64,000 nucleotides of DNA from contig CAZKJL010000002.1 of NCBI GenBank assembly GCA_964553135.1, positions 124,224-188,223 of the forward strand. Direction: 5' to 3'. Below are positions 53,106 to 55,634 of the stretch, in pieces. The position numbers and the translations under genes were made by a program. Numbering within the stretch: the stretch's first letter is position 1; each line of letters begins with the position of its first letter. The notes below the pieces were generated by a model. It was not told the origin of the DNA, did no database searches, and was given only the letters and a program-made list of their open reading frames with translations. This DNA is from an uncultured Candidatus Peribacteria bacterium (GTDB lineage Bacteria; Patescibacteriota; Gracilibacteria; Peribacterales; Peribacteraceae).

Positions 53106-53645
53106 ATGAAGCGTCTCTCCTTTTTTCTTGCGGCAATCATCCTCGTCGGAAGCGCACTGGTGCTGCCCGAGGCGCTGGCGCGTACGCTCAATGCCGAATA
53201 TCGCACCTGCATGCAGCAGGCGGTTTCCAGGTATCAATCGGCGATCATCGGCAACCAGCGCACGTACAACGATGCGCTCATCGCGGCGATGGAGCATAAG
53301 AAAGACGGTTACGTGAATTCGTGGAACAACGAAGACGAGTCGGCCCAGCAAGCCGGCGTCCGCGAAGCGGACAAGCAATGGAGCCGCGAGTACACCGATG
53401 CGCGCAAGCAGAAGAGCGATGCCGACCGTGTCGCAAGCAACGACTACAGCAACGACCGTAAACCGTGCGGTCCGCTCAAGAATCCCAAAACTCCGCCCAC
53501 CCCACCCTCACCTCCGCCACCGCCACCCGCGCCCACGAACCCCGGCCTCTGCCCCGAGGGCTACAGAAGCGTTTGCCGCAGCCCGTGCGCCGATCCGAAC
53601 CAGATCTGCATCATGATCTGTATTCATGGCTGCGAGAGGATTTAG
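53106..53645 (+). CDS. Secreted protein with a Pro-rich segment and a Cys-rich C-terminus
   Basis: Signal peptide MKRLSFFLAAIILVGSALVLPEALA, a poly-Pro run, then eight Cys in the last ~65 aa. Confidence 0.6.
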   Translation: MKRLSFFLAAIILVGSALVLPEALARTLNAEYRTCMQQAVSRYQSAIIGNQRTYNDALIAAMEHKKDGYVNSWNNEDESAQQAGVREADKQWSREYTDARKQKSDADRVASNDYSNDRKPCGPLKNPKTPPTPPSPPPPPPAPTNPGLCPEGYRSVCRSPCADPNQICIMICIHGCERI

Positions 53646-53803
53646 GCAGGTGCCCTGGCCAAAACCGGCGGAAATGGGTAACCTCCCCACGCGAAACCGT
53701 TGGGGAGTCCCTCCTTCGTCCCGCATATGCGGGACTACGGCGGGCAGGCGCCAAGCCCCCCATGTCGTTTCCATGGTCTCCGACCATGATCTTTCTACAG
53801 CAT

Positions 53804-53878
53804 TGGGGAGTCGCCAAGCGGTAAGGCAACGGGCTCTGAACCCGTCATTCGGGGGTTCGAATCCCTCCTCCCCAGCCA
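53804..53878 (+). tRNA. tRNA-Gln (anticodon CTG), CCA encoded
   Basis: TGGGGAG TC GCCAAGCGGTAAGGCA ACGGG CTCTGAA CCCGT CATTC GGGGG TTCGAAT CCCTC CTCCCCA G CCA. It aligns position-for-position with the E. coli tRNA-Gln architecture, including U1-A72. Confidence 0.92.
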
Positions 53879-53897
53879 CCTAAAAAAAGGTGTAAAT

Positions 53898-53911
53898 AGA
53901 CCCACGTGCCT
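53898..53911. repeat. Left direct repeat of the islet
   Basis: AGACCCACGTGCCT is identical to 55366-55379. Partial similarity continues (..CTAA..CTTC). Confidence 0.85.
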
Positions 53912-53927
53912 ATCTAAAAACCTTCTA

Positions 53928-54689
53928 TTACAGATGCAACTTCCTTTTTTCGACTTCGATTATTCCAAGTTTTGTAATGAAATAAATGCTCTCGTTGAAG
54001 TGCAAGAATGCACTTACATTGACAAGTCTATGAAGGGTTCTACGAAGATTTTTTCGCATAGCGGGTTTTACCCATTGTTCCAAGTCAGCATAGGAAGCAC
54101 CCTTGCTCCCACATTCGTACAAAAGTAATAATACATAATCACTCGCACCCAAATTTGGTTTTAATACTTTAAGGAAGCCGCTGAAATCCTGAACTGCTGG
54201 CGCCCTCCTGCTGATAAGATTTTCGATAATGTTCTGAGCCTCATTTGCTGAACATGCATGGTACAGACGTATAAATTCAGCCATAACCCAATCCAGTATT
54301 GAAATGACCAGAGTTGCATCCTGCAAGTTCGGATCGATCCCATCTGCAAGGTGGGCCGCATCTCGATTATTGCGAATGTCATATGTGACTCGTAGAGCCC
54401 TGGGAATATGTAGACGAATTGAGTCAGAGCACTTCCCTTTTGGGATATTAGCTAACGCAGTGATTAGTTTTTCAGCATCTAAGGATCTATTCAAACTTGT
54501 AGATTTTCCAAATGCAATCTGTTCAAGCAAGCGAAAAGCTGCTTCGCAAAAACGACCACCTTCAACTGCACTTAGTCTCAATCCACCAGCATAGAAGTTC
54601 AATTTTGACTCCTCATAAGCAGCTAGGAGTTCGTCAACGATCTTTGGATCGCAATGTTTTGAGAGGCTACTACGGATAATATTTTGCAT
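53928..54689 (-). CDS. HEPN-like N-terminal domain plus C-terminal winged-helix-like domain protein
   Basis: 253 aa. The helical N-terminal region ends in YDIRNNRDAAHL (Rx6H, with Asn after Arg, as in HEPN RNases). The C-terminal part (YVLLLLYECGSKGASYADLEQWV...LHRLVNVSAFLHF) looks like a winged helix. This assignment is inference only. Confidence 0.55.
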   Translation of the reverse strand: MQNIIRSSLSKHCDPKIVDELLAAYEESKLNFYAGGLRLSAVEGGRFCEAAFRLLEQIAFGKSTSLNRSLDAEKLITALANIPKGKCSDSIRLHIPRALRVTYDIRNNRDAAHLADGIDPNLQDATLVISILDWVMAEFIRLYHACSANEAQNIIENLISRRAPAVQDFSGFLKVLKPNLGASDYVLLLLYECGSKGASYADLEQWVKPAMRKNLRRTLHRLVNVSAFLHFNESIYFITKLGIIEVEKRKLHL

Positions 54690-54718
54690 AAGGCTTGATA
54701 AGATTTAGAATCTTCAAC

Positions 54719-55279
54719 TTACTTCCCCTTCGTCTTAGATTTCTTTGAACGGGTCTTCTTTTTAGGAAGAGAACAATCCTGTATTGCTTTCTTGACCTTT
54801 TCGCGATCAGGAAGGGCATTAACCACTGCTTCACCAAGAGAAGTTATCTGCTTATTTCCGCCACCCGCCTTTGCAAGATATTGAGCTGAAGCCGCATTGC
54901 GTGCCGATACAGACGCATTGGTAAAATCTTTCATTGCGGCTTCAGTATTTAATTTTGTAAGGTCTCGTGTTTTGAACATTGGTGTTTCACGATGATAGGC
55001 CAGATAATATGCAAGGCATGTAATACGTTCAATTTCTGAAGCAGGCTTCTTCAGAGCCATGAAGGATTTCGGCGTTGAGGAATTATCACCAGAAATAGCT
55101 GTAGCAACACCCGATTCTTTTTCGGTATTTTCCAATGAATGCATTGCTTGAGGGTTTATTGAAGCGCCCATGATCAATGTAATAATCTTTAGCGCAATAG
55201 CTTCAGAGACGGGCTTCTCGTTCATTAAAATGTCACCACCGGATAAAGTAACTTTATAGACGCTTTCTTTTGAGGTCAT
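54719..55279 (-). CDS. Orphan protein, partner of the HEPN-like gene
   Basis: 186 aa ending 29 nt upstream of the 53928..54689 gene. It has the basic tail KKKTRSKKSKTKGK. No motif recognised. Confidence 0.55.
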   Translation of the reverse strand: MTSKESVYKVTLSGGDILMNEKPVSEAIALKIITLIMGASINPQAMHSLENTEKESGVATAISGDNSSTPKSFMALKKPASEIERITCLAYYLAYHRETPMFKTRDLTKLNTEAAMKDFTNASVSARNAASAQYLAKAGGGNKQITSLGEAVVNALPDREKVKKAIQDCSLPKKKTRSKKSKTKGK

Positions 55280-55302
55280 AAATAATAGGGTAAATAATAA
55301 AA

Positions 55303-55348
55303 ATCCTAAAATTAGGATATTTATGCCTTAAATGATTGTCAATCATTT
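55303..55348 (-). promoter_or_regulatory. Candidate promoter of the islet cassette, overlapped by two perfect palindromes
   Basis: On the minus strand: TTGACA (55342-55337), a 17-nt spacer, then TATCCT (55319-55314). The 19-bp palindrome AAATGATTGTCAATCATTT (55330-55348) covers the -35. The palindrome ATCCTAA-aa-TTAGGAT (55303-55318) covers the -10. Confidence 0.5.
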
Positions 55349-55365
55349 CTTAGAGATTTTTCTTA

Positions 55366-55379
55366 AGACCCACGTGCCT
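55366..55379. repeat. Right direct repeat of the islet
   Basis: AGACCCACGTGCCT is identical to 53898-53911. Confidence 0.85.
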
Positions 55380-55634
55380 TCCTAAGGCTTCAAGCTTGCT
55401 CTCCCAAAACCCCTGAAATACCGCCAAGGTTCTAATGTCAGACCTGTCTGTTCAGCCAAGTATTTCACGAAAGGGGCTTCGCCCCTCTCGTGCCTGCACG
55501 CCAAAGCTGCCGGCGATTCCGGCACGCAGGCGTGAGCTCACCCCAAAAATGATGCGTTCCAGGCAAGCAGAGCTTGCCTTCGCGCGTTTCTTAAAACCTT
55601 ATCATATCGATACGCACGTCCGCTTATATCAACG

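What the first reader, a model, noticed from the sequence alone, without database searches (positions are those of the whole stretch)
53898..55379. Low-GC 1.5-kb islet beside tRNA-Gln, bounded by direct repeats, carrying an orphan HEPN-like two-gene cassette
Composition changes abruptly. Lines I counted inside the block (54001-54060) are about 37% G+C, against about 60% just outside (53401-53460). The low-GC block begins 20 nt after the CCA end of tRNA-Gln(CTG). It is bracketed exactly by the direct repeat AGACCCACGTGCCT (53898-53911 and 55366-55379), with imperfect similarity for about 8 further nt. It holds only two co-oriented genes 29 nt apart and no integrase or transposase.

The 253-aa product has a helical N-terminal region ending in YDIRNNRDAAHL, which fits the Rx4-6H motif of HEPN RNases. 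A winged-helix-like C-terminus follows. The 186-aa upstream product matches nothing I recognise. A compositionally foreign, tRNA-adjacent, repeat-bounded HEPN-type pair is a candidate toxin-antitoxin or abortive-infection module that I cannot place in a named family.
Basis: partly seen in the sequence, partly recalled or inferred. Interest (0 to 1): 0.75.

Follow-up and report, generated by a model that had tools for sequence, protein, structure and literature searches.

The report
Foreign HEPN-like two-gene cassette beside tRNA-Gln
A 1.5-kb piece of foreign DNA inserted at the end of a glutamine tRNA gene in a Peribacteria (candidate-phyla-radiation) genome carries a self-regulated gene pair, a DNA-binding protein plus a probable RNA-cutting (HEPN-like) protein, from a very large, widespread and so far unnamed family that looks like a toxin-antitoxin or defence module.

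Summary
Every part of the observation checks out: the tRNA-Gln, the GC drop (0.35-0.46 against 0.55-0.67), the 14-nt exact direct repeat (18/20 over 20 nt), two co-oriented minus-strand genes 29 nt apart, and no recombinase.

Two relatives have the same tRNA-Gln directly beside the flanking gene with no insert. A 94%-identical relative loses homology exactly at a copy of the tRNA 3' end. The inserted interval is therefore probably 53879-55452, and the repeats lie just inside it.

The pair is not an orphan. The 253-aa protein has about 1,100 clusters at 50% identity in Bacteria, CPR and Archaea. The 186-aa partner sits directly upstream in about 85% of loci, and the two co-evolve (r = 0.69). 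No Pfam, NCBIfam, PADLOC or PHROG model matches either.

The partner is a winged-helix DNA binder. The 253-aa protein has a helical domain with near-invariant E-x3-R and R-N-x-R-x3-H (Rx6H), then a winged helix. Fold and profile matches to HEPN recur but none is significant.

A conserved promoter with the palindrome ATCCTAA-NN-TTAGGAT travels with the cassette.

In other genomes the cassette is cargo of tRNA-flanked islands, some with integrases or defence genes.

Best reading: an autoregulated HEPN-type toxin/partner module. Toxicity is unproven.

The parts
53804..53878 (+). Intact tRNA-Gln(CTG). Its 3' end is the left junction of the insertion.
   Evidence: ARAGORN; Rfam RF00005, 63 bits. 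Five same-strain Logan contigs end at 53849, a 31-mer reaching 53879.
53879..53897 (.). 19-nt AT-rich junction segment between the tRNA end and the left repeat.
   Evidence: Sequence read. Absent from relatives L097 and L099, where the flanking gene or its spacer abuts the tRNA.
53898..53917 (+). Left copy of the direct repeat (14 nt exact, 18/20 over 20 nt). It starts 16 nt after the stop codon of the 253-aa gene.
53928..54689 (-). 253-aa gene. HEPN-like helical domain (residues 1-158, nt 54216-54689) plus a C-terminal winged helix (residues 166-248, nt 53946-54194).
   Evidence: ORF. AF2 model with pLDDT 84. Family of about 1,109 clusters at 50% identity. The C-terminus hits TubR, MarR and HxlR-type winged helices.
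54351..54374 (-). Codons for R106-N-N-R109-D-A-A-H113, the Rx6H motif proposed as the catalytic site.
   Evidence: Conservation in 96 diverged homologues: R106 94/96; N107 81 N plus 15 S; R109 95/96; H113 95/96. The weak Pfam Abi_C match covers exactly this stretch.
54719..55279 (-). 186-aa partner gene. N-terminal beta-hairpin plus helix (residues 1-37), disordered linker, winged helix (residues 70-169, nt 54773-55072) and a basic tail.
   Evidence: ORF. AF2 model with pLDDT 81. Foldseek hits to the Rok DNA-binding domain, MCM8 WH, MukE and MarR. Lies directly upstream of the 253-aa homologue in about 85% of 80 loci.
55297..55324 (.). Operator-like palindrome. The core ATCCTAA-TT-TTAGGAT lies at 55303-55318 and overlaps the -10 hexamer.
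   Evidence: 12/13 arms. The same 16-bp palindrome lies 30-70 nt upstream of the partner gene in 7 independent loci and nowhere else in 422 kb.
55314..55342 (-). Sigma-70-like promoter: TTGACA, 17-nt spacer, TATCCT.
   Evidence: Best promoter-like site in the region, 10/12. The -35 TTGACA(A/G)TC is conserved in L021, L026 and L056.
55330..55348 (.). Perfect 9+1+9 palindrome AAATGATTG-A-CAATCATTT overlapping the -35 hexamer.
55366..55385 (+). Right copy of the direct repeat, about 24 nt upstream of the -35 hexamer.
55386..55452 (.). 67-nt right-hand junction segment. It belongs to the insertion because it has no counterpart in the 94%-identical relative.
   Evidence: Alignment with L096.
55453..55458 (+). 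CAGCCA, a copy of the last 6 nt of tRNA-Gln. It is a possible displaced native tRNA end (attR-like), and homology with the relative L096 resumes here.
   Evidence: L096 has CCCAGCCA at the same point. Logan contig L004 ends at 55492, which implies sequence shared with another variant from about 55463.

Best explanation
The segment 53879-55452 is horizontally acquired DNA inserted at the 3' end of tRNA-Gln(CTG) in a Candidatus Peribacteria genome. It consists of one self-contained operon.

The operon has a sigma-70-type promoter overlapped by two palindromes. The first gene encodes a 186-aa winged-helix DNA-binding protein. The second encodes a 253-aa protein with an N-terminal HEPN-like helical domain and a C-terminal winged helix.

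Proposed mechanism (inferred):
- One or both winged-helix proteins bind the conserved ATCCTAA-NN-TTAGGAT operator and repress the operon.
- The 253-aa protein is a metal-independent RNase. Its active site is R106/N107/H113, helped by E49/R53.
- The co-evolving partner holds it in check. Loss of the cassette, or a trigger such as phage infection, releases it to cleave RNA. That would make it a toxin-antitoxin / abortive-infection type of module.

The pair is typical cargo of tRNA-targeting genomic islands. Here only the pair is present. Either an integrase acting in trans delivered it, or it is what remains of a larger island.
For: Insertion (shown):
- There is a sharp, unique GC dip.
- In two relatives, L097 and L099, whose flanking 153-aa protein is 73-75% identical, tRNA-Gln(ctg) sits 10 nt or 214 nt from that gene with no cassette.
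- In L096 (94% identical flank) homology stops at TGGCTGGG, the reverse complement of the tRNA 3' end, and different sequence follows.
- Assembly graphs branch at both junctions.

Conserved unit (shown):
- More than 1,800 homologues exist at 90% clustering, and about 1,109 clusters at 50% identity.
- The partner is directly upstream in about 85% of loci.
- Distance matrices of the two proteins correlate, r = 0.69, with 0/999 Mantel permutations reaching it.
- Cassette GC is below flank GC in 24/27 loci.

DNA binding and autoregulation (structure predicted, role inferred):
- Both proteins are predicted to contain winged helices.
- A promoter plus a 16-bp palindrome is conserved in 7 loci from different hosts.
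- Palindromes with arms of 9 nt or more occur upstream in 6/42 loci, against 0/42 controls.

HEPN-like RNase (inferred):
- Near-invariant R-[NS]-x-R-x3-H and an invariant E49 in an E-x3-R motif match the diagnostic features listed for the superfamily in PMC3710099, section 6.
- The domain is predicted all-helical.
- Eight of the top 50 Foldseek PDB chains, from 6 entries, are HEPN proteins: Csm6 5yjc (probability 0.85), 4nqf, 1ufb, 1wol, 8xeh and 2hsb.
- Abi_C, a HEPN-clan family, is the most frequent Pfam hit among 96 homologues (7 members, best E 0.02).
- Abi_C aligns exactly over the motif in the family consensus (E 0.09-0.17).

Island cargo and conflict context:
- tRNAs or tRNA 3' fragments lie near many cassettes, and the tRNA 3' end faces the cassette in 6 of 7 tRNA-adjacent cases.
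- L018 is a 9-kb island bounded by tRNA-Leu repeats. It holds the cassette with Dcm, Vsr, a HipA-like gene and an ApeA-type HEPN gene.
- L048 is a 15.7-kb island bounded by a tRNA repeat. It has an integrase-like ORF that scores below Pfam's curated cut-off (E 2.5e-5; 24.6 bits against 27.1).
- In L071 a tyrosine integrase lies 74 nt from the cassette.
Against: - No significant match to any HEPN family or structure was found. Foldseek E-values are 0.46 or higher and Pfam E-values 0.02 or higher. PDB profile searches find nothing in the N-domain.
- hhalign against two in-session HEPN sequences was negative, though single-sequence templates make this weak evidence.
- The loop carrying H113 is modelled with low confidence: pLDDT is below 50 for residues 110-118.
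- PADLOC has no model for either protein.
- The cassette is absent from phage records and IMG/VR, and nearly absent from plasmids.
- Most neighbours are housekeeping genes. Only a minority of loci look like defence islands.
- The 60-70% identity across phyla is unusually high for a toxin family.
- No toxicity data exist.
Confidence: 0.5

Rival explanations
1. The pair is a non-toxic DNA-binding system. Two winged-helix proteins would act as a transcription regulator or as nucleoid-associated / xenogeneic-silencing proteins that travel with foreign AT-rich DNA. The conserved polar residues of the helical domain would then serve ligand or nucleic-acid binding rather than RNA cleavage.
For: - Both proteins carry winged helices.
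- The partner's build resembles xenogeneic silencers such as Rok: a small N-terminal domain, a disordered linker, a C-terminal DNA-binding domain and a basic tail. The top Foldseek hit is the Rok DNA-binding domain at E 0.03.
- The cassette is AT-richer than its host in 24/27 loci.
- The very high sequence conservation is more typical of a structural or regulatory protein than of a toxin.
- No significant HEPN match was obtained.
Against: - An invariant or near-invariant constellation E49, R53, R92, R106, N107, R109, H113, D124, E138, R141 in a small helical domain looks like an active site, and it fits the HEPN motif rules.
- The Foldseek hits for the N-domain are HEPN proteins, not regulators.
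- Tight two-gene coupling with co-evolution is the usual signature of effector/inhibitor pairs.
- One homologue (L021) carries a premature stop in the 253-aa gene, as often happens to toxins.
Confidence: 0.2
2. Origin variant A. The islet is the last remnant of a larger integrase-bearing island at tRNA-Gln. The rest was deleted, and the cassette survived because losing it is penalised (addiction). The 14/20-nt repeats would be leftovers or coincidental.
For: - Larger tRNA-bounded islands with the same cassette exist: L018 (9 kb), L048 (15.7 kb, with an integrase-like ORF below Pfam's cut-off) and L071 (integrase adjacent).
- Only 6 nt of the tRNA end are repeated at the far junction, which suggests erosion.
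- The closest strain, L096, carries different DNA at the same site, so the site turns over.
Against: - The cassette GC (0.41 against 0.58) shows no amelioration, so the acquisition is recent and leaves little time for decay.
- Repeats of 18/20 nt bracketing the genes this tightly are not expected from random deletion, and the same geometry recurs in L051 and L007.
- L018 shows that integrase-less tRNA-bounded islands with this cassette exist.
Confidence: 0.3
3. Origin variant B, the most novel reading. The two-gene unit is itself a minimal mobile element, either self-mobilising or mobilised in trans. It would insert as a unit of about 1.47 kb and create or use 14-20-nt direct repeats, with its winged-helix proteins recognising the ends.
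For: - Direct repeats of unrelated sequence bracket the unit in the window (18/20), L051 (18/20) and L007 (13/14). The downstream copy always lies 12-22 nt after the stop codon. No null comparison reached the score of 14 seen in the window and L051 (null maximum 13, in 2 of about 210 comparisons).
- The unit carries its own conserved promoter, so its boundaries are constant.
- It is spread across Bacteria, CPR and Archaea at 60-70% identity.
- The upstream repeat in the window begins with the operator half-site TTAGGA.
Against: - Neither protein has a recombinase, transposase or Cas1 fold.
- There are no terminal inverted repeats.
- About 32 of 35 loci show no repeat above chance.
- Only one copy was seen per contig and per window.
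- No short contig is circular.
- In the window the repeats are not the junctions seen against relatives.
Confidence: 0.05

Closest known systems
AbiJ / Abi_C (PF14355) and other HEPN abortive-infection proteins (Anantharaman et al. 2013, PMC3710099)
   Same: Small helical domain with an R-N-...-H motif and an upstream conserved acidic residue. Abi_C is the most frequent, though weak, Pfam hit, and it aligns over the motif. Found in mobile or conflict contexts in some loci.
   Different: The domain order is reversed: HEPN-like at the N-terminus and a winged helix at the C-terminus, whereas AbiJ has an N-terminal domain followed by HEPN. The protein here has an obligate upstream partner. No match reaches significance. 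It is absent from PADLOC.
HEPN/MNT (HepT-MntA) and RnlA-RnlB type II toxin-antitoxin systems
   Same: Two-gene operon with a putative HEPN RNase as the downstream gene and a co-evolving upstream partner. Often located in islands.
   Different: The partner is a winged-helix DNA binder, not a nucleotidyltransferase (MNT) or RnlB. No sequence or profile similarity was found.
AbiE (AbiEi winged-helix antitoxin that autoregulates through inverted repeats; PMC7319586, seen only as an abstract)
   Same: The upstream gene encodes a winged-helix protein, and palindromic operators overlap the promoter.
   Different: The AbiE toxin is a DUF1814 nucleotidyltransferase. Here the effector is a HEPN-like helical domain that also carries its own winged helix.
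tRNA-targeting integrative genomic islands and integrase-less cis-mobilisable derivatives
   Same: Insertion at the tRNA 3' end, foreign composition, an empty site in relatives, turnover between strains, and short repeats at or near the ends.
   Different: There is no integrase in the islet or nearby. The long repeat does not include tRNA sequence. Only 6 nt of the tRNA end are duplicated. At 1.57 kb it is extremely small.

Membership tests
HEPN superfamily | Rx4-6H motif with a polar residue (N/D/H) right after the R | tested here: met
   R106-N107-x-R109-x3-H113 is Rx6H. Conservation in 96 homologues: R106 94/96; N107 81 N plus 15 S; H113 95/96. Criterion taken from PMC3710099, section 6.
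HEPN superfamily | Second conserved acidic residue upstream, typically within Ex3[KR] | tested here: met
   E49 96/96 and R53 82/96, as E-A-A-F-R.
HEPN superfamily | All-alpha core of about 100-120 residues (four-helix up-down bundle) | tested here: inconclusive
   The AF2 N-domain is all helical. Foldseek returns HEPN chains repeatedly, but only at E 0.46-1.9 and TM 0.26-0.51. The model could not be cropped to the domain.
HEPN superfamily | Significant profile or sequence match to a curated HEPN family | tested here: not met
   Pfam Abi_C reaches only E 0.02-0.17, below its 24-bit cut-off. No HEPN hit appears in the PDB profile searches. hhalign against single ApeA-type HEPN and DUF4145-like sequences was negative. 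HHpred was not available.
HEPN superfamily | Metal-independent RNase activity that depends on the R and H residues | not testable with these tools
   Needs biochemistry.
Type II toxin-antitoxin module | Two small adjacent co-oriented genes that form one operon and are inherited together | tested here: met
   29-nt gap in the window, and 0-30 nt or overlapping in other loci. Co-evolution r = 0.69.
Type II toxin-antitoxin module | DNA-binding antitoxin that autoregulates through operator palindromes | tested here: inconclusive
   A winged-helix partner is predicted. A conserved palindrome overlaps the promoter. Binding has not been shown, and the effector also has a winged helix.
Type II toxin-antitoxin module | Toxin arrests growth and the cognate antitoxin neutralises it | not testable with these tools
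   Needs expression experiments.
Known anti-phage defence systems (PADLOC-DB v2) | Match to a model of a known or candidate defence protein | tested here: not met
   No family at E <= 1 for either protein.
tRNA-integrating genomic island | Located at the 3' end of a tRNA gene, with an empty site in relatives | tested here: met
   The foreign DNA starts at 53879, the first base after the tRNA. L097 and L099 have the tRNA next to the flanking gene with no insert.
tRNA-integrating genomic island | Flanking direct repeats derived from the tRNA 3' end (attL/attR) | tested here: inconclusive
   Only CAGCCA (6 nt) is repeated, at 55453-55458. The 14/20-nt repeat holds no tRNA sequence. Clear 22-25-nt tRNA-end repeats bound the larger islands L018 and L048.
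tRNA-integrating genomic island | Encodes its own integrase | tested here: not met
   Neither product has Pfam hits. There is no Phage_integrase among the genes called within about 6 kb.
Transposon / IS element | Transposase gene and terminal inverted repeats | tested here: not met
   No transposase domain. No inverted repeats join the two ends.
Integron gene cassette | attC-type imperfect palindrome downstream of the ORF(s) | tested here: not met
   No inverted repeat in 53870-53940. Only about 50 nt separate the stop codon from the tRNA.

The most novel reading that the evidence does not exclude
The unit of about 1.47 kb (promoter/operator, winged-helix gene, HEPN-like/winged-helix gene) is a new kind of minimal mobile element. 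It would move as a unit and leave 14-20-nt direct repeats, using its own DNA-binding proteins, perhaps with a host or trans-acting recombinase, with a preference for sites next to tRNA genes. A helical R/H-motif protein would then take part in DNA mobility rather than, or as well as, RNA cleavage.
Probability: 0.05. Interest if true: 0.85.

Novelty: new variant of a known kind. Interest (0 to 1): 0.5.

Why it matters
If the reading is right, this is one of the larger protein families with no name at all. It has about 1,100 clusters at 50% identity and spans Bacteria, candidate-phyla-radiation lineages and Archaea.

It would add a distinct architecture to the HEPN toxin world: an N-terminal HEPN-like domain plus a winged helix, paired with a winged-helix partner and a conserved operator. 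It would also give annotation pipelines and defence-system finders a new model.

The family comes with a ready set of testable sites: R106, H113, E49 and the ATCCTAA-NN-TTAGGAT operator.

It is also a clean example of strain-level turnover at a tRNA hot spot in a CPR genome, a group whose mobile elements and conflict systems are poorly known.

If the protein turns out not to be a nuclease, the finding shrinks to an ordinary small genomic islet carrying regulators.

Tried and rejected
Searches that found nothing useful:
- Single-sequence scans of both proteins against Pfam, PADLOC, NCBIfam and PHROGs gave nothing at E <= 1, apart from one chance chitinase hit.
- PDB profile searches with three alignments (A1, A3 and the N-domain-only A6) gave only Nup192, winged-helix or noise hits, and no HEPN.
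- Foldseek against viral structures (BFVD) matched only winged-helix fragments.
- hhalign of the N-domain against an ApeA-type HEPN and a DUF4145-like sequence found in the neighbouring islands was negative. These single-sequence templates have low power.
- Phage records gave no match. IMG/VR gave no relative. Plasmids gave one distant Natronomonas hit annotated as hypothetical.
- Three literature searches found no description of this pair.

Dead ends in the empty-site search:
- The genome-collection scan found one Peribacteria MAG (L013). Its contig ends just before the tRNA, so it shows no empty site.
- An exact-protein look-up of the flanking 153-aa gene found only contigs that carry the cassette.
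- L100 is not syntenic.

Hypotheses tested and dropped:
- A search for copies of the tRNA 3' end on the far side of the cassette in seven tRNA-adjacent loci found only an 8-9-nt match in L006.
- None of the short contigs is circular.
- A kleisin/KITE (ScpA/ScpB, MukF/MukE) reading was prompted by protein sizes and MukE fold hits. I rejected it because there are no ScpA/ScpB Pfam hits and the 253-aa model matches HEPN chains rather than kleisins.
- A tyrosine-recombinase reading of the conserved R/R/H/W residues was rejected. There is no conserved tyrosine (Y103 is present in only 74/96), and no integrase appears among the fold hits.
Full report
**1.
ARAGORN and Rfam place an intact tRNA-Gln(CTG) at 53804-53878. 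In 200-nt windows GC falls from 0.585-0.67 just left of the tRNA to 0.35-0.465 between 53900 and 55399, then returns to 0.55-0.62. At 1-kb resolution 54001-55000 (0.421) is the lowest window in the whole 64 kb. The only other window below 0.53 is the adjacent one, which also overlaps the islet.

AGACCCACGTGCCT occurs exactly twice, at 53898-53911 and 55366-55379. None of 100 shuffles gave two matches. The similarity extends to 18 of 20 nt.

Two minus-strand ORFs fill the block: 54719-55279 (186 aa) and 53928-54689 (253 aa), 29 nt apart. YDIRNNRDAAHL is residues 103-114 of the 253-aa product. Rfam finds no other RNA.

**2. Host, and proof of insertion.**
The flanking 501-aa hydrolase is 87% identical to one in a MAG named uncultured Candidatus Peribacteria. 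The host is therefore a CPR bacterium with about 58% GC.

The 153-aa gene to the right of the islet is conserved in CPR genomes. Two relatives show the uninterrupted arrangement, with tRNA-Gln(ctg) on the opposite strand and its 3' end facing that gene:
- In L097 (GCA_020059125.1, 73% identity) the tRNA lies 10 nt after the gene.
- In L099 (75% identity) the tRNA lies 214 nt after the gene.

The closest relative is L096 (94% identity). It aligns with the window through the gene and a 176-nt spacer. Homology stops at TGGCTGGG, the reverse complement of the tRNA 3' end (...CCCAGCCA), and unrelated sequence follows until the contig ends. The window has CAGCCA at the same point (55453-55458).

Five same-strain Logan contigs end at 53849, and one ends at 55492. 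If these contigs were built with 31-mers (my assumption), the assembly graph branches at 53878/53879 and at about 55463, which are the two junctions.

The inserted interval is therefore most likely 53879-55452 (1,574 nt). The site carries different DNA in closely related strains. The 14/20-nt repeats lie inside this interval, 19 nt and 67 nt from its ends.

**3. The gene pair is a large conserved family, not an orphan.**
The 253-aa protein has more than 1,800 homologues among 90%-identity clusters. The best 120 are 60-70% identical, all about 255 aa, all called 'hypothetical', and none has a Pfam domain. An exhaustive profile search finds 1,109 clusters at 50% identity. The 186-aa protein has its own family.

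In 80 metagenome loci plus several long contigs, the partner lies directly upstream in about 85% of cases. In L010 the partner is split into two genes.

Hosts include Peribacteria, another CPR genome (L009), a contig with about 70% GC that I take to be actinobacterial on composition alone (L051), an archaeon (L012) and Alphaproteobacteria, by source names.

The distance matrices of the two proteins correlate: r = 0.69, with 0 of 999 Mantel permutations as high. Cassette GC tracks the host across 0.36-0.69 but is lower than the flanks in 24 of 27 loci. The mean difference is -0.042, and the window, at -0.17, is the extreme. The pair therefore moves as a unit by horizontal transfer, and the copy in the window is a recent arrival.

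**4. What the proteins look like.**
*Partner* (AF2 model, pLDDT 81). It has a beta-hairpin plus helix (residues 1-37), a disordered linker, a very confident winged helix (residues 70-169) and a basic tail. Foldseek returns the Rok DNA-binding domain, MCM8 WH, MukE and MarR, with the best hit at E 0.03.

*253-aa protein* (AF2 model, pLDDT 84). It has an all-helical domain (residues 1-158) and a winged helix (residues 166-248). The C-terminus hits TubR, MarR and HxlR.

Across 96 homologues down to 26% identity, these positions are invariant or nearly so:

| Residue | Conservation |
|---|---|
| E49 | 96/96 |
| R53 | 82/96 |
| R92 | 89/96 |
| R106 | 94/96 |
| N107 | 81 N + 15 S |
| R109 | 95/96 |
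| H113 | 95/96 |
| D124 | 96/96 |
| W134 | 95/96 |
| E138 | 94/96 |
| R141 | 93/96 |

The defining description of the HEPN superfamily gives three features: an Rx4-6H motif, a polar N/D/H after the R, and an upstream acidic residue, typically in Ex3[KR] (PMC3710099, section 6). R106-N-x5-H113 and E49-x3-R53 fit all three.

Structure and profile evidence agree in direction but are weak:
- Eight of the top 50 Foldseek PDB chains, from six entries, are HEPN proteins (Csm6 5yjc, 4nqf, 1ufb, 1wol, 8xeh, 2hsb). Their E-values are 0.46-1.9.
- Abi_C is the commonest Pfam hit among the 96 homologues (7 members, best E 0.02).
- Abi_C aligns exactly over the motif in the family consensus, at E 0.09-0.17.
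- Sequence-profile searches of the PDB find nothing.

I rate 'HEPN-like RNase' as probable, at about 0.5-0.6, and not established.

**5. Regulation.**
The best promoter-like site in the region is on the minus strand: TTGACA (55342), a 17-nt spacer, then TATCCT. A perfect 9+1+9 palindrome covers the -35 hexamer. A 12/13 palindrome with core ATCCTAA-TT-TTAGGAT (55303-55318) covers the -10 hexamer.

The same 16-bp palindrome, ATC[C/A]TAA-NN-TTA[G/T]GAT, lies 30-70 nt upstream of the partner gene in seven independent loci. It occurs nowhere else in 422 kb of fetched sequence. TTGACA(A/G)TC is conserved upstream of it. Across 42 loci, palindromes with arms of 9 nt or more occur upstream in 6, against 0 in coding controls.

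The cassette therefore carries its own conserved promoter and operator. Repression by one of its winged-helix proteins is the natural inference, but it has not been shown.

**6. How it travels.**
tRNA genes lie within 700 nt of the cassette in 7 independent loci (Gln, Ser, Arg). In 6 of those 7 the tRNA 3' end faces the cassette.

A scan for tRNA 3'-end fragments shows larger islands:
- L018 has a 25-nt copy of the tRNA-Leu 3' end at one side and the intact tRNA 9 kb away. The bounded island holds the cassette, a C5 methylase, Vsr, a HipA-like kinase and an ApeA-type HEPN protein, and no integrase.
- L048 is a similar 15.7-kb island with an integrase-like ORF (Phage_integrase E 2.5e-5, below Pfam's curated cut-off).
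- In L071 a tyrosine integrase lies 74 nt from the cassette, followed by a tRNA-like fragment.
- L021 has a 21-nt tRNA-Ser fragment at the place where the related L022 has the intact tRNA.

Among 139 neighbouring proteins the only recurrent mobile or conflict families are Phage_integrase (4), DNA methylases (3), one restriction enzyme and one TOTE primase. Most neighbours are housekeeping genes. The cassette is absent from phage records and IMG/VR, and nearly absent from plasmids.

The picture is of a cargo module of tRNA-targeting chromosomal islands, sometimes in defence-type islands. In the window it stands alone.

**7. The direct repeats.**
Flanking repeats above chance occur in only three of about 35 testable loci: the window (18/20), L051 (18/20, GCCCCTCAGCTTG...) and L007 (13/14). 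Their sequences are unrelated. In each case the downstream copy lies 12-22 nt after the stop codon.

They could be target duplications, att cores for an integrase acting in trans, protein-binding sites, or partly coincidence. The upstream copy in the window starts with the operator half-site TTAGGA. I could not decide between these. Because the junctions seen against relatives lie outside the repeats, I do not treat the repeats as the ends of the insertion.

**8. Verdict.**
The block is a real, recent, foreign insertion at a tRNA hot spot. It carries a conserved, self-regulated two-gene module whose effector has the motif signature of a HEPN RNase and whose partner is a winged-helix DNA binder. 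The nearest analogues are HEPN toxin-antitoxin and abortive-infection systems.

It fails or leaves open the formal membership tests for every named family, and no function has been tested. It is best filed as a new variant of a known kind. Interest is moderate (0.5). There is a small chance, about 5%, that the unit is itself a new type of minimal mobile element.

Noticed in passing
window 53700-53756: About 50-100 nt upstream of tRNA-Gln there are short pieces that resemble the tRNA itself. TTGGGGAGTC matches its 5' end, GAGTCCCTCCT resembles its T-arm/acceptor 3' part, and GGGCAGGCGCCAAGC resembles GGGGAGTCGCCAAGC (families D16, D11, D5). This may be a scar of earlier rearrangements at this tRNA.
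   Followed up: no
L099 4496-4709: Three tandem copies of a unit of about 62 nt fill the spacer between the 164-aa gene and tRNA-Gln in a relative.
   Followed up: no
L013 596-2008: In the Peribacteria MAG, a 470-aa Ser-rich secreted protein is inserted between the 153-aa gene and the hydrolase gene, relative to the window. That contig also breaks exactly at the end of the 153-aa gene, so the neighbourhood is variable.
   Followed up: partly
L018 50-9171: A 9-kb island bounded by a 25-nt repeat of the tRNA-Leu(caa) 3' end carries the cassette with a C5 methylase, Vsr, a HipA-like kinase and an ApeA-type HEPN protein. It has no integrase.
   Followed up: partly
L021 1666-1668: The 253-aa homologue in this locus is interrupted by an in-frame stop near residue 143. 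This is a possible inactivated toxin.
   Followed up: no
L010 4978-5979 (also L011, L017): A three-gene variant. The partner's winged helix sits in a separate 134-aa protein (hhalign probability 93%). A 189-aa protein with only a weak N-terminal resemblance lies between it and the 253-aa gene.
   Followed up: partly
L026 2429-2586: A 25-nt fragment of the tRNA-Gln(ttg) 3' end (23/25 identical) sits 59 nt before the intact tRNA, just downstream of a cassette. It looks like an att-type scar.
   Followed up: no
L019 position 1 and L022 position 6: Two metagenome contigs begin right at the operator palindrome of the cassette. Many other contigs with the cassette are only 1.3-2.5 kb long. This suggests that assemblies often break at the cassette boundaries.
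   Followed up: no
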